In this document: positions 1,266 to 4,470 of the stretch, one piece after another
How positions within the stretch are numbered: position 1 is the first letter of the stretch
How the letters are laid out: each line of letters starts with the position of its first letter
Origin: an uncultured Gammaproteobacteria bacterium
GTDB lineage: Bacteria > Patescibacteriota > Patescibacteriia > UBA2591 > UBA6264
Assembly (NCBI GenBank): GCA_964617525.1
Contig: CAZTWG010000039.1
Location: 1-6,050, forward strand
Length of the DNA stretch: 6,050 bases
Direction of reading: 5' to 3'
Notes under the pieces: generated by a model
The model's database searches: none
What the model saw: only the letters and a program-made list of their open reading frames with translations
Told to the model about the DNA's origin: nothing
Made by a program: the position numbers and the translations under genes

Positions 1266-2096
1266 ATGTTTTTGCAAATTATTTGTATTCTATTTTTAAT
1301 AATTTTTTTAGTATATTCCATACTCAAAGAACCGTTTAATGTTTGCTTAGAACGCAAGGACATATTTTTGGAAAAATTACCGACTAATTTTGACGGATTA
1401 AAAATTGTTCAAATTAGTGATTTGCATTCTAAGAAATTTGGCAAAAAAGAAAAAAGAATTTTAGAGATTATAGGTCAGCTTAATGTTGATTTTCTTTTTA
1501 TAACCGGCGACATAAATGAAGCTAAACAAAGAAAAGTTAATTCTTGCATTGAGTTTTGGAAAGCCCTAGGAAAAGTAAAGCAAGGTTGTATTTATGCTGT
1601 CTTTGGTAATCATATTTACGAACATCAAAAAATAGAACCTATTGTTTTAAAAAATATTTTGAGAAAATCAGGAATACAGATTCTTGATAACGAAAATGTA
1701 AAGCTAAGGAGAGAAGAACAATATATTTGGCTCTTGGGTGTTGATGACCCACACACAAATCATCATGATTTATCAAAAACATTGCAAGGCATAGATAATT
1801 CCTCAACAAGAATATTATTATCGCATAGTCCAGAGATAATAGATGATTTAAAGACGGGGGATGCTGATTTAATTTTAGCTGGGCATACACATGGCGGACA
1901 AATTAAAATTCCTGGGATTTGTCCCTTTTGGGTGCCGACAAAATATCATGGCAAATATCAGCGCGGATTGTTTAAAGTTAAGGGCGCTTATCTATATGTT
2001 AATCGTGGGATTGGAACAGCTCACTTTCCTGTTCGTTTTAATTCTAAACCAGAGATAACACTATTCACACTTAAAGACCCCCAAATTGACCACTGA
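1266..2096 (+). CDS. Membrane-anchored metallophosphoesterase (calcineurin-like, YkuE/YaeI type)
   Basis: An N-terminal hydrophobic helix (MFLQIICILFLIIFLVYSIL) precedes the ordered phosphoesterase motifs 'ISDLHS' (DxH), 'ITGDI' (GD), 'FGNH' (GNH) and 'AGHTHGGQI' (GHxH). Confidence 0.85.
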   Translation: MFLQIICILFLIIFLVYSILKEPFNVCLERKDIFLEKLPTNFDGLKIVQISDLHSKKFGKKEKRILEIIGQLNVDFLFITGDINEAKQRKVNSCIEFWKALGKVKQGCIYAVFGNHIYEHQKIEPIVLKNILRKSGIQILDNENVKLRREEQYIWLLGVDDPHTNHHDLSKTLQGIDNSSTRILLSHSPEIIDDLKTGDADLILAGHTHGGQIKIPGICPFWVPTKYHGKYQRGLFKVKGAYLYVNRGIGTAHFPVRFNSKPEITLFTLKDPQIDH

Positions 2097-2113
2097 GGTC
2101 AATTTCAATTTTT
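2083..2113 (+). terminator. Weak intrinsic terminator-like hairpin overlapping the stop codon of the phosphoesterase gene
   Basis: AAATTGACC (2083-2091) pairs with GGTCAATTT (2097-2105) as a 9-bp perfect stem. The 5-nt loop ACTGA contains the TGA stop. The T5 run (2109-2113) is separated from the stem by 'caa'. Confidence 0.4.
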
Positions 2114-2116
2114 GTA

Positions 2117-2144
2117 TTGACAAATTCTTCAAATCTGCTATAAT
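2117..2144 (+). promoter_or_regulatory. Consensus sigma70-type promoter with extended -10 (copy A)
   Basis: The -35 is TTGACA at 2117-2122, the spacer is 16 nt, TGc lies at 2136-2138, and the -10 is TATAAT at 2139-2144. Both hexamers are perfect consensus. Confidence 0.8.
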
Positions 2145-2154
2145 TTCAATAATT

Positions 2155-2182
2155 AAGAACAAAAACGTTCTTTAAAAGGAGG
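2155..2182 (+). promoter_or_regulatory. Leader palindrome AAGAAC-N6-GTTCTT followed by Shine-Dalgarno AGGAGG (copy A)
   Basis: AAGAAC (2155-2160) and GTTCTT (2167-2172) are perfect inverted repeats about +4 to +21 from the predicted TSS. AGGAGG lies at 2177-2182, 4 nt before the ATG at 2187. The same elements occur at 3626-3653 and 4436-4463. Confidence 0.6.
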
Positions 2183-2186
2183 AAAA

Positions 2187-2666
2187 ATGTTGACAATACT
2201 TATTAAGTCCGTATTGTCCCTTGTTGCTTATGTTGTTATTATCATTGTTTTTAGGTTAGCCTATCATTTCTTGATTGCAAAAAGACATCTTCCGAGACAG
2301 TCAATGAATATCTGTGGTCCAGAAGGGATTACAGTAGATGTCTCTGGTCTATTCTACGACGGTCATAGAGAAGAGTCTCTTAAGCTCACTAGAGATTTAT
2401 CTACAATTTTCTTTTCTGTAGGTTTCTTCATCTTCGGCATAATTTCTCTTTTTTTAAGGGGAATGAATACGCCAATGATATTGGTTCTGTTTTTCAACTT
2501 TTCGTATTATCTTGGTGCAAGTGCAAGAACAGCGACAGAAGATGCAAAGGATTATCTCTCCTCTTTCATGGGAGAACTAACCCGTCTTGAAGCAATAGGT
2601 AGTATTCTCTTGGCTGTTTTATTTTCAGCAGGGACAACAGCGCTTATTGTCCTTTTATTAGGGTAA
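2187..2666 (+). CDS. Hypothetical integral membrane protein, about 4 TM helices (159 aa)
   Basis: A perfect SD is well placed upstream. Hydrophobic segments lie at about residues 3-29, 73-90, 95-110 and 135-158. A polar loop lies at 30-72 and an amphipathic stretch at 111-134. I recognise no catalytic motif. A strong terminator follows. Confidence 0.75.
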   Translation: MLTILIKSVLSLVAYVVIIIVFRLAYHFLIAKRHLPRQSMNICGPEGITVDVSGLFYDGHREESLKLTRDLSTIFFSVGFFIFGIISLFLRGMNTPMILVLFFNFSYYLGASARTATEDAKDYLSSFMGELTRLEAIGSILLAVLFSAGTTALIVLLLG

Positions 2667-2684
2667 GGTGCAGAAAAAAGTATT

Positions 2685-2718
2685 AGGCTTGATCTTTGTG
2701 TCAAGCCTATTTTTTTTG
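2685..2718 (+). terminator. Rho-independent terminator
   Basis: TAGGCTTGA (2685-2693) pairs with TCAAGCCTA (2702-2710) as a 9-bp perfect stem with an 8-nt loop. A T8 run (2711-2718) follows immediately. Confidence 0.85.
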
Positions 2719-2737
2719 TGATATTATTGGGGATTTT

Positions 2738-2762
2738 ATTTAGGAATCCGATTCCTAAATAG
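2738..2762. promoter_or_regulatory. Perfect 11-bp inverted repeat (TATTTAGGAAT ccg ATTCCTAAATA), candidate operator
   Basis: The arms at 2738-2748 and 2752-2762 are exact reverse complements with a 3-nt spacer. The repeat lies in the 198-bp intergenic region about 100 nt upstream of the Nudix ATG, and no T-run follows it. Confidence 0.45.
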
Positions 2763-2864
2763 TTTAATTTGTGTTTATGATAGAAAAATGTTAAACTAAC
2801 ATTAGTCGGTTTTCTCTGCTTAGTCTTGGGGAGACGGTAATTATAATCAATAAAATAAACAAAA

Positions 2865-3512
2865 ATGAAAGTTAAAAAATTATTAGAATTCATGGAGAAA
2901 AACACTGAGTTTATTCCTAGCTGGAAAGAATATAAAGGAGGCGGTTTGTATAACCCTCATTTTGGTTCAGTAGAGAGAATTGTTGTCTGCGAAGATGATG
3001 ACACTCCTATTTTTGATCAGTATCAGGTTGTAGAAAAGGGGGGGGCAATTGTTGTCCCTTATTATTTTAAAGATAATAATCTAAAGGATGTTTTTATTGG
3101 GCTCAATACATGTATTCGGGCGGTTGTTGCCGATTTAAAGACAGGTGAACAAGGAAACCTAAAGAGCATAGAAGTGCCTAGGGGATTTGGAATTGGTGAT
3201 GAAGAAGATTCTTCTGTAGCTATCAGAGAATTAGGCGAAGAGACACAACATGTAGTCAAAAAGTTAGATTTAATAGGCTACGTTAATGCTAATACAGCCT
3301 ATTTTAAGAATTATGGAATTTCAACATTTGCGGCATTAATTGATACAGATTCTTTGGGCAAATTTACTCCTGACCCAAACGAAAAGATACTTAGTTGTAG
3401 TTTTTATTCTGTAGAAGAAGTTAAAAAAATGTTGAATGATAACAAGATTTTTTGTGGGCTTACTAAATCAGCGCTTTTAGATTTTCTCGTTTTCATCAAA
3501 AGTGATCTGTGA
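2865..3512 (+). CDS. Nudix hydrolase (ADP-ribose pyrophosphatase-like), 215 aa
   Basis: A near-canonical Nudix box G-x5-E-x7-REUxEExGU lies at residues 107-129 (nt 3183-3251). It reads G FGIGD E EDSSVAI RE L G EE T Q H, with only the last G replaced by Q. There is no SD upstream, as for the flanking native genes. Confidence 0.8.
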   Translation: MKVKKLLEFMEKNTEFIPSWKEYKGGGLYNPHFGSVERIVVCEDDDTPIFDQYQVVEKGGAIVVPYYFKDNNLKDVFIGLNTCIRAVVADLKTGEQGNLKSIEVPRGFGIGDEEDSSVAIRELGEETQHVVKKLDLIGYVNANTAYFKNYGISTFAALIDTDSLGKFTPDPNEKILSCSFYSVEEVKKMLNDNKIFCGLTKSALLDFLVFIKSDL

Positions 3513-3523
3513 ATATAAACTAA

Positions 3524-3545
3524 CCTATAACTGACCTATAACTGA
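3524..3545. repeat. Tandem 11-bp direct repeat CCTATAACTGA x2
   Basis: 3524-3534 is identical to 3535-3545. The repeat starts 12 nt after the Nudix stop codon, and the second unit supplies the CTGA of the terminator's left arm. Confidence 0.9.
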
Positions 3546-3567
3546 CCCGACGGGTCAGTTTTTTTTT
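3541..3567 (+). terminator. Rho-independent terminator (5' part of module copy B)
   Basis: CTGACCC (3542-3548) pairs with GGGTCAG (3552-3558) with loop GAC, and A3541/T3559 can extend the stem. A T9 run follows at 3559-3567. Confidence 0.8.
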
Positions 3568-3587
3568 CAGGGAGTCTCCCACGCATA

Positions 3588-3615
3588 TTGACAAATTCTC
3601 CAAATTTGCTATAAT
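3588..3615 (+). promoter_or_regulatory. Consensus sigma70-type promoter with extended -10 (copy B)
   Basis: TTGACA lies at 3588-3593, the spacer is 16 nt, TGc lies at 3607-3609, and TATAAT lies at 3610-3615. The GGGAGTCTCCC palindrome at 3570-3580 lies just upstream. Confidence 0.8.
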
Positions 3616-3657
3616 TTCAATAATTAAGAACAAAAACGTTCTTTAAAAGGAGGAAAA

Positions 3658-4296
3658 ATGAAAATTAACTACGCTAAACGCATTGCTCGATTACAAGAGT
3701 GTCTAGGCATAGACACCGGCATTACCGCTCAGCAGTTCAAGCTGGAGGCCGAACATCTATGGGACGTTATGATTCAAAGGGATCCTAAGATAGTTAGTGA
3801 ATTCAATATAGTGCTTCCAGTGGTTTTACCTAAGCTTGTTACTGGTGACCTTGGTATTGAGTTGCAATTGTATCTAGAAGGAGTTGGCAAAAGCTATGCT
3901 AAAATTACCGATAGAGAGTTCCATAACTATTATGAGAATGAATTAGATGGCAAGGTCAAAATAGTTCCAGGGAGTCATCATAATCAACTCATCAAACGTA
4001 TGAAACAGGGGTCACTTGTCGGCATACATCTTTCAGGTCTTTTGCGTGGCGAATTTGAACCAAGAGAGCAATACTTACTATCTGGCATGGATATTCCTAT
4101 TGTCGTGTTGATGTTTCCCGATCTATTTGGTTGCGACCATAATCAGATTTTGGACATGACTGCTCTCTCGTGGCGAAACGGGAGGGGACTTGCTTTAGCT
4201 AGCTACAAAACAGGCGCAGAGTTTAATATTACTGGCAACTTGCTTTATGCGGGTGTTGCTGATTATGCTCGACCCTCTTACCTATTTTTAGGGTAG
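3658..4296 (+). CDS. Hypothetical soluble protein, 212 aa, no recognisable motif
   Basis: The ORF has a perfect SD (AGGAGG 3648-3653) and its own strong terminator. It has no signal peptide or TM segment. It is noticeably more GC-rich than its neighbours: hand counts give 43% for 3661-3720 and 48% for 3721-3780. Confidence 0.75.
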   Translation: MKINYAKRIARLQECLGIDTGITAQQFKLEAEHLWDVMIQRDPKIVSEFNIVLPVVLPKLVTGDLGIELQLYLEGVGKSYAKITDREFHNYYENELDGKVKIVPGSHHNQLIKRMKQGSLVGIHLSGLLRGEFEPREQYLLSGMDIPIVVLMFPDLFGCDHNQILDMTALSWRNGRGLALASYKTGAEFNITGNLLYAGVADYARPSYLFLG

Positions 4297-4310
4297 GTTT
4301 CTCAATTTAT

Positions 4311-4344
4311 AGGTCTTTCGTATTTGCGAAAGACCTGCTTTTTT
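4311..4344 (+). terminator. Rho-independent terminator
   Basis: AGGTCTTTCG (4311-4320) pairs with CGAAAGACCT (4327-4336) as a 10-bp perfect stem with a 6-nt loop. It is followed by GCTTTTTT (4337-4344). Confidence 0.85.
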
Positions 4345-4347
4345 AAT

Positions 4348-4470
4348 TATAACCAACCCGACGGGTCAGTTTTTTTTCAGGGAGTCTCCCACGCATATTG
4401 ACAAATTCTTCAAATCTGCTATAATTTCAATAATTAAGAACAAAAACGTTCTTTAAAAGGAGGAAAAATG
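4348..4470 (+). repeat. Regulatory module copy C, long form with truncated terminator arm
   Basis: It contains ACCCGACGGGTCAG plus T8 (4356-4377), GGGAGTCTCCC (4380-4390), the promoter, the leader, the SD (4458-4463) and the ATG at 4468. The left arm of the hairpin reads CCAACCC instead of CTGACCC, so only 4 bp can pair. Confidence 0.97.
4398..4425 (+). promoter_or_regulatory. Consensus sigma70-type promoter with extended -10 (copy C)
   Basis: TTGACA lies at 4398-4403, the spacer is 16 nt, TGc lies at 4417-4419, and TATAAT lies at 4420-4425. Confidence 0.8.

What the first reader, a model, noticed from the sequence alone, without database searches (positions are those of the whole stretch)
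3524..4377. Junction anatomy suggests cassette insertion by recombination between terminator-promoter modules (PeSL-like shuffling)
The long repeat form begins inside a terminator hairpin. In copy B the hairpin is intact (CTGACCC-GAC-GGGTCAG + T9) and terminates the Nudix gene. In copy C the left arm is replaced (CCAACCC), leaving a crippled 4-bp stem plus T8. The upstream 212-aa ORF instead brings its own unrelated 10-bp-stem terminator (4311-4344). This is what is expected if a unit [module + 212-aa ORF + own terminator] integrated by homologous recombination into a pre-existing Nudix-[terminator+module]-lipoprotein arrangement, duplicating the module. Repeated stem-loop plus early-promoter units flanking small orphan ORFs are the defining feature of PeSL cassettes in T4-type phage hyperplastic regions. 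Recombination between those units shuffles and circularises single-gene modules. Finding the same architecture in a cellular housekeeping context (tsaB, uppS) would be new.
Basis: inference. Interest (0 to 1): 0.72.

Follow-up and report, generated by a model that had tools for sequence, protein, structure and literature searches.

The report
Reiterated terminator-promoter cassette driving gene turnover
Three near-identical terminator, promoter and ribosome-binding-site modules precede the three lineage-specific genes of a variable chromosomal interval in an uncultured Patescibacteria-like bacterium, and metagenome contigs show these modules recombining to delete or circularise the genes between them, much like the PeSL cassettes of T4-type phages.

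Summary
Three direct copies of one module precede ORF159, ORF212 and a 99-aa lipoprotein. The module is TTGACA-16-TGcTATAAT, a leader, AAAGGAGG and ATG. B and C share a 50-nt left extension including a hairpin, intact in B and mismatched in C. ORF212 has its own strong terminator.

- A haplotype lacking window 2190-4470 joins metallophosphoesterase to the lipoprotein through one chimeric A/C module. It occurs in three assemblies, and in two samples it forks cleanly from the long form.
- An 810-bp closed-cycle contig carries ORF212 and one chimeric C/B module, meaning a circle or a tandem repeat.
- Copy C is a mosaic of B and A.

Sister species keep Nudix in this interval, so the short form is a deletion. 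They carry the same module in one or two copies (a degenerate remnant in one) before unrelated genes, and the interval's gene content differs in every species.

The module is native and ancient, not phage-derived. C's "replaced" arm is the family's canonical arm. ORF212 is a truncated gene.

The insertion history of ORF212 is not demonstrated. Genome-wide copy number, read-level support and promoter or terminator activity remain untested.

I rate this a cellular, PeSL-like variant of a known kind.

The parts
2083..2105 (+). Hairpin AAATTGACC-ACTGA-GGTCAATTT overlapping the metallophosphoesterase stop codon. It is a weak terminator-like element to the left of module A.
   Evidence: Found by the terminator scan. 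Folds at -9.7 kcal/mol, z = -2.65.
2115..2189 (+). Module A, the short form. Its parts are -35 TTGACA (2117-2122), a 16-nt spacer, TG plus -10 TATAAT (2139-2144), a leader with the inverted repeat AAGAAC-N6-GTTCTT (2155-2172), SD AAAGGAGG (2175-2182) and the ATG of ORF159 (2187).
   Evidence: It is 100% identical to 4396-4470. A homologous promoter lies at the same position after the metallophosphoesterase gene in L034 and L126, with a degenerate remnant in L030.
2187..2666 (+). ORF159, a lineage-specific predicted membrane protein and the first cassette gene. Its terminator lies at 2684-2709.
   Evidence: It has no Pfam match. A search of 5.8 billion proteins found only itself. It is absent from the syntenic interval of L030, L034, L125 and L126. 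The terminator folds at -15.3 kcal/mol, z = -5.1.
2865..3512 (+). Nudix-like gene of 215 aa. It is ancestral to the interval and is not preceded by the module. It is lost in the short haplotype.
   Evidence: Pfam NUDIX, E = 7.8e-5. It has 80-87% amino-acid orthologues at the same position in L030, L034 and L126, with a conserved 100-nt upstream region.
3537..3664 (+). Module B, the long form. Its parts are the intact Nudix terminator hairpin (3540-3560), a run of nine T (3559-3567, overlapping the last two bases of the stem), CAGGGAGTCTCCCACGCATA (3568-3587), -35 (3588-3593), -10 (3610-3615), the leader, SD (3646-3653) and the ATGAAAA of ORF212.
   Evidence: The same hairpin (CTGACCCGTCGGGTCAG plus T-run) ends the orthologous Nudix gene in L034 and is followed directly by the SIMPL promoter.
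3658..4296 (+). ORF212, an N-terminally truncated and internally deleted member of a roughly 300-aa protein family of unknown function. It has the highest GC content in the window.
   Evidence: Homologues are 262-332 aa and 42-49% identical. ORF212 lacks their first ~75-115 residues (only 28 in the shortest, P0008), including the conserved LFDKHGRRIP..VCDANR motif. GC is 0.42 and GC3 0.39, against 0.32-0.36 and 0.24-0.28 for the flanking core genes.
4310..4344 (+). ORF212's own intrinsic terminator, unrelated to the module hairpin.
   Evidence: A 12-pair stem at -17.0 kcal/mol, z = -5.8, followed by CTTTTTT.
4348..4474 (+). Module C, the long form and a mosaic. Its parts are a chimeric hairpin (left arm AACCAACCC 4351-4359, right arm GGGTCAGTT), T8, the same left extension as B, a spacer identical to A, the leader, SD and the ATGAAAA of the lipoprotein gene.
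   Evidence: The hairpin folds no better than shuffles. It is the only mismatched member of the hairpin family.
4468..4767 (+). Lipoprotein of 99 aa, the third cassette gene, retained in the short haplotype. Its terminator at 4791-4813 is followed by the native SIMPL promoter at 4832-4860.
   Evidence: LPAM_1 lipobox match. It has only about 20 weak homologues among 1.84 billion representative proteins. The terminator and SIMPL promoter are homologous to L126 11190-11290, where a different 75-aa ORF follows the module.
2190..4470 (.). Segment of 2281 bp absent from the short haplotype. The crossover lies within the 68 nt shared by A (2122-2189) and C (4403-4470).
   Evidence: Seen in L007/L018, L015 and L017. 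It forks cleanly from the long form in two samples.
3537..4347 (.). Unit of 810 or 811 bp (module, ORF212 and terminator) that forms a closed cycle in contig L005. The crossover lies between 4356 and 4409.
   Evidence: L005 is 951 nt, which equals 810 plus an exact 141-nt terminal overlap. Its junction is C-left (CCAACCC), the B-type spacer and the ORF212 start.

Best explanation
The feature is a reiterated, locus-native regulatory cassette with a dual role.

Composition: an intrinsic-terminator hairpin with a T-run, then a consensus sigma-70 promoter with an extended -10, then a 45-nt leader with a strong Shine-Dalgarno sequence and the start codon.

Role 1 (inferred from consensus matches and folding, not measured): each copy insulates and strongly expresses one lineage-specific gene (ORF159, the truncated ORF212, the lipoprotein). 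These genes lie in a hypervariable interval between conserved genes, the metallophosphoesterase gene and SIMPL, of a Patescibacteria-like chromosome.

Role 2 (shown from contigs): the copies are direct repeats of 68-124 bp at 97-100% identity, so they undergo homologous recombination and gene conversion.
- An A x C exchange deletes ORF159, Nudix and ORF212 and leaves one chimeric module. This is a haplotype polymorphism within populations.
- A B x C exchange gives an 810-bp circle or tandem unit carrying ORF212 and one chimeric module.
- Conversion keeps the copies within one species nearly identical and produced the mosaic copy C.

Longer-term consequence (inferred from species comparison): the same module persists while the genes behind it are gained, lost and replaced.

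Whether incoming genes enter through module-borne circles or acquire the module after arrival is not resolved.
For: Anatomy:
- Three 12/12 promoters with TG lie exactly in the three modules.
- Hairpin and terminator folding energies are; the alignment is.

Deletion haplotype:
- L015 (MAG GCA_053985555.1, an 11.5-kb contig running from tsaB to SIMPL), L017 (a 43-kb contig) and L007/L018 all join the metallophosphoesterase gene to the lipoprotein gene through one module. The breakpoints fall in the 68-nt A/C identity.
- In sample ERZ27248007, L023's last 141 nt equal the first 141 nt of both L007 (short form) and L120 (long form). In ERZ27248110, L017 and L003 likewise share 141 nt and then diverge. 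Both haplotypes are therefore supported at k = 141, which exceeds the repeat length.

Polarity of the event:
- Nudix is syntenic and 80-87% identical in L030, L034 and L126, so the short form is a deletion.
- The -35-less allele of module A also occurs in the long form (L022), and an intermediate allele occurs in L123.

Cycle: L005 is 810 nt plus a 141-nt overlap, with a chimeric C-left/B-spacer junction. L006 shows an A/C-type spacer before ORF212.

Mosaic copy: C combines B's left part with A's spacer.

Family depth and gene turnover:
- The module is present after the metallophosphoesterase gene in L034 and L126. A second copy occurs in L126, and two copies occur in L125. These copies precede unrelated ORFs.
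- Core identity is 97-100% within this species and 92% within L126, against 89% or less between species.
- Interval gene content differs in all five lineages.

Hairpin family: three compensatory pairs and 94% of cells paired, and copy C alone carries the two central mismatches, at the covarying pairs.
Against: - All variants come from short-read metagenome assemblies. I could not inspect reads or coverage.
- The cycle could be a tandem duplication, or could arise from chimeric library molecules.
- Only three copies are known. Genome-wide distribution is essentially untested: the exact 28-mer was found only at this locus in one JGI contig, and the species is absent from the GTDB representatives searched.
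- No haplotype lacking only ORF212 was found.
- Full-length ORF212 homologues elsewhere carry no module, so the module does not travel with that gene.
- Promoter, terminator and leader functions are inferred from consensus only.
- The leader hairpin AAGAAC/GTTCTT is not conserved in L125 or L034.
- Deletion between direct repeats is generic and needs no dedicated system.
Confidence: 0.7

Rival explanations
1. This is ordinary local promoter duplication plus generic repeat-mediated deletion. On this view a strong native promoter and leader was copied twice by segmental duplication, or was captured by newly arrived genes. The short haplotype is a RecA-type deletion between direct repeats. The modules play no part in bringing genes in, and the resemblance to PeSL is superficial.
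For: - The only polymorphism proved is a deletion.
- The module is native to position A in sister species.
- ORF212 homologues elsewhere lack the module.
- ORF212 is a truncated fragment fused at the module's ATG, which suggests illegitimate joining rather than clean cassette exchange.
- More than 4000 families of duplicated promoters before unrelated genes are known (PMC3575422).
Against: - Orthologous module copies in L125 and L126 share the upstream flank but are followed by different ORFs. The L126 module-ORF-terminator-SIMPL frame matches the window's, but a different ORF sits inside it. This is replacement within a conserved regulatory frame.
- The 810-bp cycle equals exactly one module-to-module unit.
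- All three lineage-specific genes, and only those, carry the module.
Confidence: 0.2
2. The variants are assembly artefacts. On this view the short form and the cycle are mis-joins of de Bruijn graph assemblers across a 68-124-bp repeat in mixed-strain metagenomes, and only the long form exists.
For: - Many contigs of this locus break at or near the modules.
- Strain mixtures are evident from SNPs.
- No reads were examined.
Against: - The repeats are shorter than the final k of 141. The junction-specific bases lie 70-122 nt apart, so single 141-mers must span them: the -35-less allele to the lipoprotein start, and CCAA to the B-type spacer to the ORF212 start.
- The forks share exactly 141 nt.
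- The short form recurs in three assemblies on different SNP backgrounds, including an 11.5-kb MAG contig with private SNPs.
Confidence: 0.07
3. The module is a shared regulatory element maintained by selection. On this view the three genes form a small regulon, and the copies are similar because a transcription factor or RNA-binding factor needs the palindromes GGGAGTCTCCC and AAGAAC-N6-GTTCTT, not because of recombination.
For: - The two palindromes lie at plausible operator positions.
- The TTGACAAATTC..CAAATCTG..GTTCTTTAAAAGGAGG core is conserved across species at the level of coding sequence.
Against: - Selection does not explain 100% identity at every spacer and leader position over 75 nt.
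- It does not explain the B/A mosaic of copy C or the chimeric junctions in the variants.
- The left arm of the leader palindrome is lost in L125 and L034.
- This rival is compatible with the best explanation rather than an alternative to the recombination evidence.
Confidence: 0.03

Closest known systems
PeSL (promoter-early stem-loop) cassettes of T4-type phages (Arbiol et al. 2010, PMC2839356; Comeau et al. 2014, PMC4122927)
   Same: - Both are composites of about 100 bp: a stem-loop terminator, a strong sigma-70 consensus promoter, an SD and a start codon.
- Both are reiterated in a hyperplastic region immediately upstream of lineage-specific or orphan ORFs.
- In both, indels between close relatives have breakpoints in the motif and leave one chimeric motif.
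- Both show a circular junction carrying one ORF and one chimeric motif.
- Crossovers map between the -35 region and the ATG in both.
- A -35-destroying allele here parallels the promoter-down mutations the PeSL authors recovered on cloning.
   Different: - This is a cellular chromosome next to tsaB, uppS, rplJ/L, argS and RNase J, not a phage. No viral hits were found.
- Only three copies are known, against about 50 per phage genome.
- The copies are true homologues at 97-100% identity, rather than a loose motif class.
- The hairpin lies upstream of the -35, which is one of the five PeSL subclasses.
- Circles are inferred from an assembly cycle, not from inverse PCR.
- There is no sequence homology to the phage PeSLs.
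Putative mobile promoters / promoter reuse in prokaryotes (Matus-Garcia, Nijveen and van Passel 2012; PMC3575422)
   Same: Highly similar upstream regions precede non-homologous genes within one genome, with no IS or MITE involved. The B/C pair meets their criterion of at least 80% identity over at least 50 nt within -150 to -50.
   Different: - That survey catalogued promoter pairs. The commentary read here (PMC3575422) reports no linked terminator, local clustering in one variable interval, population-level deletion or circle variants, or gene replacement behind conserved copies; the full paper was not read.
- It predates available Patescibacteria genomes.
Homologous-recombination deletion and tandem amplification between short direct repeats (textbook RecA-dependent unequal exchange; from general knowledge)
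   Same: The mechanism matches the A x C deletion and the 810-bp circle or tandem unit, and the products carry one chimeric repeat.
   Different: The generic mechanism does not predict that the repeats are complete expression signals. It also does not predict that they persist across species in front of changing genes.
Integron gene cassettes (attC plus IntI; from general knowledge)
   Same: Both involve single-gene units bounded by imperfect palindromes in a variable array, with circular intermediates.
   Different: - No integrase is present in about 23 kb of context.
- Each gene here has its own promoter, whereas integron cassettes are usually promoterless.
- The observed breakpoints lie in the promoter-leader region, not in the palindrome.
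Promoter- or terminator-bearing miniature repeats (Correia elements, ERIC, REPIN; cited in PMC3575422)
   Same: Both are short intergenic repeats that supply promoters or terminators to neighbouring genes.
   Different: The module has no terminal inverted repeats or target-site duplications, is not dispersed as far as tested, and has its right boundary at the start codon.

Membership tests
PeSL (T4-type phage regulatory cassette) | Contains a strong sigma-70 consensus promoter | tested here: met
   TTGACA-16-TATAAT scores 12/12, with TG, in all three copies. These are the only 12/12 sites in the window. Promoter activity was not measured.
PeSL (T4-type phage regulatory cassette) | Contains a stable stem-loop acting as a terminator or attenuator within the composite | tested here: met
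   Copy B has a 9-bp GC-rich stem followed by nine T (the first two also close the stem) at -17.3 kcal/mol. Copy C is a mismatched copy. Copy A has a different, weaker hairpin at 2083-2105. Across species the hairpin family shows three compensatory pairs.
PeSL (T4-type phage regulatory cassette) | Ends 3' in a Shine-Dalgarno sequence and the start codon of the downstream ORF | tested here: met
   AAAGGAGG-AAAA-ATG is present in all copies.
PeSL (T4-type phage regulatory cassette) | Concentrated in hyperplastic regions, mostly upstream of ORFans | tested here: met
   Interval content differs in the window, the short form, L030, L034, L125 and L126. The module precedes exactly the three lineage-specific genes. 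ORF159 has no homologue at all.
PeSL (T4-type phage regulatory cassette) | Many copies per genome (about 50) | tested here: inconclusive
   Three copies lie in about 45 kb of this genome held here. The exact 28-mer was found only at this locus in JGI contigs. The species is not in the GTDB representative set. The rest of the genome was not seen.
PeSL (T4-type phage regulatory cassette) | Indels between close relatives have breakpoints in the motif and leave one chimeric motif | tested here: met
   The short haplotype lacks 2190-4470 and carries one A-left/C-right module.
PeSL (T4-type phage regulatory cassette) | Mini-circles carrying ORF(s) plus one chimeric motif | tested here: inconclusive
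   L005 is an 810-bp closed cycle at k = 141 with a C-left/B-right module. A circle cannot be distinguished from a tandem repeat without reads or PCR.
PeSL (T4-type phage regulatory cassette) | Resides in a T4-type phage genome and acts as an early promoter | tested here: not met
   The context is cellular: tsaB, uppS, rplJ/rplL, argS, RNase J and PPDK. No matches were found in viral contigs. PHROGs gave only two marginal matches, Nudix to a MutT/NUDIX family at E = 0.004 and the lipoprotein signal peptide to Cor at E = 0.002. The feature therefore works like a PeSL but is not a member of that phage-defined class.
Putative mobile promoters (PMP) | At least 80% identity over at least 50 nt in the -150 to -50 upstream windows of two genes in one genome | tested here: met
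   B versus C: 3537-3608 against 4348-4418, with 5 differences in 72 aligned positions. The A/C identity lies mostly inside -50 and so falls outside their window.
Putative mobile promoters (PMP) | The downstream coding sequences are not paralogous | tested here: met
   All-against-all BLASTP found no hit between ORF159, ORF212 and the lipoprotein.
Integron cassette array | A tyrosine-recombinase integrase (IntI) adjacent, with attC-bounded promoterless cassettes | tested here: not met
   No integrase or recombinase Pfam match occurs among the genes of the 23-kb contig. Each gene has its own consensus promoter.
MITE / Correia-like element | Terminal inverted repeats and a target-site duplication flanking the repeat | tested here: not met
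   The inverted-repeat scan shows only the internal hairpins and no terminal inverted repeats bounding the module. The right end is the ATG.
Known structured RNA leader (Rfam) | Match to a curated covariance model | tested here: not met
   The only hit was a chance snoRNA match at E = 0.59.

The most novel reading that the evidence does not exclude
The module may be a cellular counterpart of phage PeSLs in the full sense. On this reading it is a self-perpetuating terminator-promoter-RBS cassette that excises single genes as small circles and re-integrates them at other module copies, possibly in other strains or species. It would thereby serve as a recombinase-independent vehicle for gene capture and exchange in the reduced genomes of Patescibacteria. 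The truncated ORF212 would be a captured fragment made expressible by the module's own start codon.
Probability: 0.3. Interest if true: 0.8.

Novelty: new variant of a known kind. Interest (0 to 1): 0.62.

Why it matters
Patescibacteria (CPR) have small, streamlined genomes, and little is known about how they gain and express new genes. This locus suggests a simple, enzyme-independent route.

A portable expression frame (terminator, promoter and RBS) is reiterated in one tolerant interval. It makes any gene placed behind it immediately expressed and insulated. Its own repetition supplies the homology for deletion, amplification, circularisation and replacement.

This logic was proposed for the hyperplastic regions of T4-type phages. 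In the literature I could search, the term PeSL appears only in phage papers.

The locus also offers a concrete, testable population polymorphism: long form, short form and circle, all in named public samples. It is also a caution for MAG assembly and binning, because contigs break or fork exactly at these modules.

Tried and rejected
- Rfam scan of the window at a permissive threshold gave nothing relevant, so the leader is not a known RNA family.
- Genome-wide or other-species copies by exact pattern. The JGI metagenome scan returned only the same locus. The collection evidently omits the short contigs that also carry the module, so this test has low power. The GTDB representative scan returned nothing.
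- Synteny through genome contigs using a metallophosphoesterase alignment returned only distant relatives at 53% identity or less. Sister species had to be reached through the search for homologous proteins and the look-up of encoding contigs instead.
- Phage origin. Two DNA patterns and the ORF212 family profile found nothing in viral contigs. PHROGs gave only a signal-peptide-level Cor match and a weak Nudix match, and PADLOC gave nothing. I rejected both a phage origin and a defence-island reading.
- Module travelling with ORF212. The contexts of full-length homologues P0009 and P0005 show no module-like sequence upstream. Rejected.
- Integron or MITE models were rejected; see the membership tests.
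- Taxon name through cluster members: no names were on record. The Patescibacteria assignment rests on the source names of metallophosphoesterase homologues and on gene content.
- I considered the short form to be ancestral, with the long form arising by insertion. I rejected this because Nudix and its upstream leader are syntenic and 77-84% identical at the nucleotide level in sister species. In addition, the -35-less module A allele carried by every short form also exists in a long-form contig (L022), with an intermediate allele in L123.
Full report
**What is in the window.** The 6050-bp window is low in GC. All of its genes lie on the + strand, in this order:
- a short tsaB (46-462)
- uppS (520-1251)
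- a metallophosphoesterase gene (1266-2096)
- ORF159 (2187-2666)
- a Nudix-like gene (2865-3512)
- ORF212 (3658-4296)
- a 99-aa lipoprotein gene (4468-4767)
- a SIMPL/DUF541 gene (4895-5653)
- a 101-aa membrane ORF

The 23-kb source-like contig adds argS, an amino-acid kinase, rplJ, rplL, RNase J and PPDK. The closest named homologues of the metallophosphoesterase come from Patescibacteria, Pacebacteria and Minisyncoccales MAGs. This is therefore a cellular, CPR-type chromosome.

**Checking the observation.** A module occurs three times in direct orientation.
- A (2115-2189) and C (4396-4470) are identical over 75 nt.
- B (3586-3660) differs from both at two spacer positions, 3600 and 3606.
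- B and C alone share a further 50 nt on the left: TATAAC, the hairpin, the T-run and CAGGGAGTCTCCCACGCATA.

Each copy contains the following elements:
- TTGACA, a 16-nt spacer and TGcTATAAT. These are the only three 12/12 promoter matches in the window.
- A leader with the small inverted repeat AAGAAC-N6-GTTCTT, which folds at -5 kcal/mol.
- AAAGGAGG and the ATG.

- Hairpin B plus T9 folds at -17.3 kcal/mol.
- Copy C has two central mismatches and folds no better than shuffles.
- ORF212 has an unrelated 12-pair terminator at -17.0 kcal/mol (z = -5.8).

The duplication covers the whole hairpin, starting at TATAAC (3537/4348). B and C differ by two bases in the left arm, so the repeat does not start inside the stem.

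**Population variants.** Exact-protein look-ups returned about two dozen contigs of the same species, at 99.4-100% identity, from several samples and from two GenBank MAGs. Four results matter.

1. *A short haplotype.*
   - L015 is an 11.5-kb contig of GCA_053985555.1 running from tsaB to SIMPL. L017 is a 43-kb contig, and L007/L018 is a third example.
   - All three join the metallophosphoesterase gene to the lipoprotein gene through a single module. They lack window 2190-4470.
   - The crossover lies within the 68 nt that A and C share.

2. *The short and long forms coexist.*
   - In ERZ27248007, the last 141 nt of L023 equal the first 141 nt of both L007 (short) and L120 (long). The two then diverge at window 2101.
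   - In ERZ27248110, L017 (short) and L003 (long) share 141 nt and diverge at 2017.
   - The repeat is shorter than k = 141, and the junction-specific bases lie about 70 nt apart. These joins therefore need real spanning k-mers.

3. *An 810-bp closed cycle.*
   - L005 (ERZ27248162) is 951 nt, which is 810 nt plus an exact 141-nt terminal overlap.
   - It reads ORF212, its terminator, C's left part (CCAACCC), B's spacer SNPs, and then the ORF212 start.
   - This is the junction expected from a B x C exchange, giving either a circle or a tandem repeat. The crossover lies between 4356 and 4409.

4. *Allele exchange among copies.*
   - L006 has the A/C-type spacer in front of ORF212.
   - Copy C in the window combines B's left part with A's spacer.
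   - Module A has an allele series: the window type; L123 with one change; and L022 and all short forms with CACTTTTTTATATAAATTC, which lacks the -35.
   - Because the -35-less allele occurs in front of both ORF159 (L022) and the lipoprotein (short form), the short form is best read as an A x C deletion in an L022-like strain.

**Sister species.** Metallophosphoesterase homologues at 66-78% amino-acid identity led to four related lineages with conserved flanks running from tsaB, uppS and the metallophosphoesterase gene to SIMPL, the 100-aa ORF and RNase J. One of them, L125, is a 7.9-kb contig that lacks tsaB and ends before SIMPL. The gene content between the metallophosphoesterase gene and SIMPL differs in every lineage:

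| Lineage | Genes in the interval |
|---|---|
| L030 | Nudix only |
| L034 | Nudix225, inositol phosphatase, Nudix217 |
| L125 | a reverse-strand 193-aa ORF, a divergent Nudix, inositol phosphatase, and more (the contig ends before SIMPL) |
| L126 | a 217-aa ORF, Nudix, inositol phosphatase, a reverse-strand rve-like 427-aa ORF, a 75-aa ORF |
| Window | ORF159, Nudix, ORF212, lipoprotein |

- The window's Nudix and about 100 nt upstream of it are orthologous across L030, L034 and L126. Identity is 80-87% at the amino-acid level and 77-84% at the nucleotide level.
- Nudix is therefore ancestral, and the short haplotype is a deletion.
- ORF159, ORF212 and the lipoprotein are the three genes specific to this lineage, and they are exactly the three that carry the module.

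**The module is old and native.**
- *L034:* the metallophosphoesterase gene ends in a hairpin (GGGACCCGAGGGGTCCC), followed by CACTATGCATATTGACAAATTCCGCGAATTTGTCATACT and a leader ending GTTCTTTAAGGAGG.
- *L126, first copy:* a full copy follows the metallophosphoesterase gene. It reads AACCAACCCGACGAGTTGGTT, a T-run, the promoter, and then AATTAAGAACAAAGACGTTCTTTAAAAGGAGG.
- *L126, second copy:* this copy is 95% identical to the first. It precedes a 75-aa ORF, whose terminator and the SIMPL promoter that follows are homologous to window 4791-4860.
- *L125:* two copies are present. One shares its upstream flank with L126's second copy but is followed by a different ORF.
- *L030:* a degenerate remnant is retained.
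- None of the ORFs behind these copies are related to each other, apart from the Nudix paralogues.
- Core identity is 97-100% among the window's copies and 92% within L126. Between species it is 89% or less. This fits either concerted evolution or lineage-specific re-duplication.

**Reinterpreting the hairpin.**
- Across these loci the hairpin forms a family, AAC[C/T][A/G]ACCC-GNC-GGGT[T/C][G/A]GTT. It has three pairs with compensatory changes, and 94% of cells are paired.
- The canonical form in L125 and L126 is AACCAACCC...GGGTTGGTT.
- B, and the Nudix terminator of L034, is the doubly compensated variant AACTGACCC...GGGTCAGTT.
- Window copy C has the canonical left arm with the B-type right arm, and it alone carries the two central mismatches, at the covarying pairs.
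- C's arm is therefore not a random lesion. It marks a recombination or gene-conversion endpoint inside the shared ACCCGACGGGT core.

**The cargo.**
- ORF159 has no homologue other than itself among 5.8 billion clustered proteins.
- The lipoprotein has about 20 weak relatives.
- ORF212 has nine homologues of 262-332 aa at 42-49% identity.
  - It lacks their first ~75-115 residues (only 28 in the shortest, P0008), including a conserved motif, and also an internal segment of about 18 residues.
  - It has the highest GC and GC3 in the window.
  - It is thus a fragment of a foreign-looking gene that is readable only because the module supplies ATG-AAA in frame.
- Full-length homologues in other CPR genomes have no such module.
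- No cargo protein matches defence or phage families beyond trivial hits.

**Mechanism, and what is shown versus inferred.**
- *Shown from sequence and contigs:* reiteration of a complete expression frame; a deletion polymorphism with breakpoints in the frame; a closed-cycle junction; mosaic copies; conservation of the frame across species with changing cargo.
- *Inferred:* that the promoters and terminators are active; that exchange is by general homologous recombination (no recombinase gene is nearby); and that the cycle is an excised circle rather than a tandem array. Recovery of the full cycle as an isolated contig hints that its depth exceeds that of its chromosomal connections, but I could not measure this.
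- *Unresolved:* whether genes enter through module-borne circles.

**Comparison with known systems.**
- Arbiol et al. (PMC2839356) describe PeSLs with five properties:
  - They are composites of about 100 bp, made of a stem-loop, a sigma-70 promoter, an SD and an ATG.
  - They are concentrated in hyperplastic regions.
  - They lie before ORFans.
  - They mediate indels that leave one chimeric motif.
  - They produce mini-circles.
- Every architectural and behavioural feature I could test is met here. The exceptions are the phage context (not met), the copy number (unknown) and direct proof of circles (inconclusive). The locus therefore works like a PeSL array without being a member of that phage-defined class.
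- On the cellular side, the B/C pair satisfies the operational definition of putative mobile promoters (PMC3575422). That survey, as summarised there, describes neither the terminator linkage nor the local array nor the population dynamics.
- In the searchable literature, the term PeSL occurs only in phage papers.

**Verdict.**
- Recombination between modules and PeSL-like behaviour are supported.
- The specific insertion history is not shown.
- The hairpin detail is reinterpreted.
- The novelty claim is narrowed.

I rate the finding as a new variant of a known kind, of moderate to high interest. The main caveat is that all variant evidence comes from short-read metagenome assemblies.

Noticed in passing
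window 5964-6047; L001 12315-12390 and 14095-14160; L002 8560-8750: A second repeated intergenic unit lies downstream of ORF101. It reads AAGAACCTGCTCACTTTGTTCGCAGAACCTTGAAAT followed by an AT-rich promoter-like stretch. It is present once in the window, twice in L001 and three times in L002. A diverged copy sits before the MamF-like gene. This is another copy-number-variable regulatory repeat in the same genome.
   Followed up: partly
window 3658-4296: ORF212 is an N-terminally truncated and internally deleted member of a roughly 300-aa family of unknown function found in other CPR-like genomes. Its GC (0.42) and GC3 (0.39) are the highest in the window.
   Followed up: yes
window 2106-2122; L022 2100-2125; L123 1580-1610; L015 5936-5950: Module A has an allele series: CAATTTTTGTATTGACA (window), CACTTTTTGTATTGACA (L123), and CACTTTTTTATA---TA (L022 and all short forms). 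The last allele destroys the -35 box and leaves only the extended -10.
   Followed up: partly
L126 9450-10733 (- strand): A 427-aa ORF with an rve-like integrase core (Pfam E = 6e-5, below the curated cut-off; motif HTDNGTEF) lies immediately upstream of module copy 2 in the sister species. It is possibly an IS element in the same hot spot.
   Followed up: partly
L125 6951-7250 and 7328-7627: A 100% identical 300-nt direct repeat with 377-nt spacing lies downstream of the inositol phosphatase gene in a sister species. It contains GGACCC..GGGTCC hairpins.
   Followed up: no
window 4120-4158; L020 8855-8896; L008 1-50: In MAG GCA_053986565.1 one contig ends inside ORF212 with 8 substitutions in 39 nt. 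The next contig of the same MAG starts at 4114 with the window allele. This means either two diverged ORF212 alleles or copies in that population, or an assembly-end artefact.
   Followed up: partly
window 3526-3547: An 11-nt tandem duplication, TATAACTGACC x2, forms and precedes the left arm of hairpin B.
   Followed up: no
window 2763-2864; L030 7881-7981; L034 9642-9743; L126 7690-7795: About 100 nt upstream of the Nudix gene is conserved at 77-84% across species, including GTTTTCTCTG..GTCT.GGGAGA. This may be a conserved leader or regulatory element. It has no Rfam match.
   Followed up: no
L034 5844-6986 (also L035-L037): tsaB and uppS are called as one fused 380-aa ORF (TsaD plus Prenyltransf domains) in one sister lineage. 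They are separate genes in the window.
   Followed up: no
L126 6815-6846 and 8446-8477; L126 6843-6869 and 9412-9438: Two further hairpin elements are each duplicated within the sister species' interval: GTTAACCTCTAGAGGTTAAC and the canonical AACCAACCC hairpin. Terminators as well as promoters are therefore reiterated there.
   Followed up: partly
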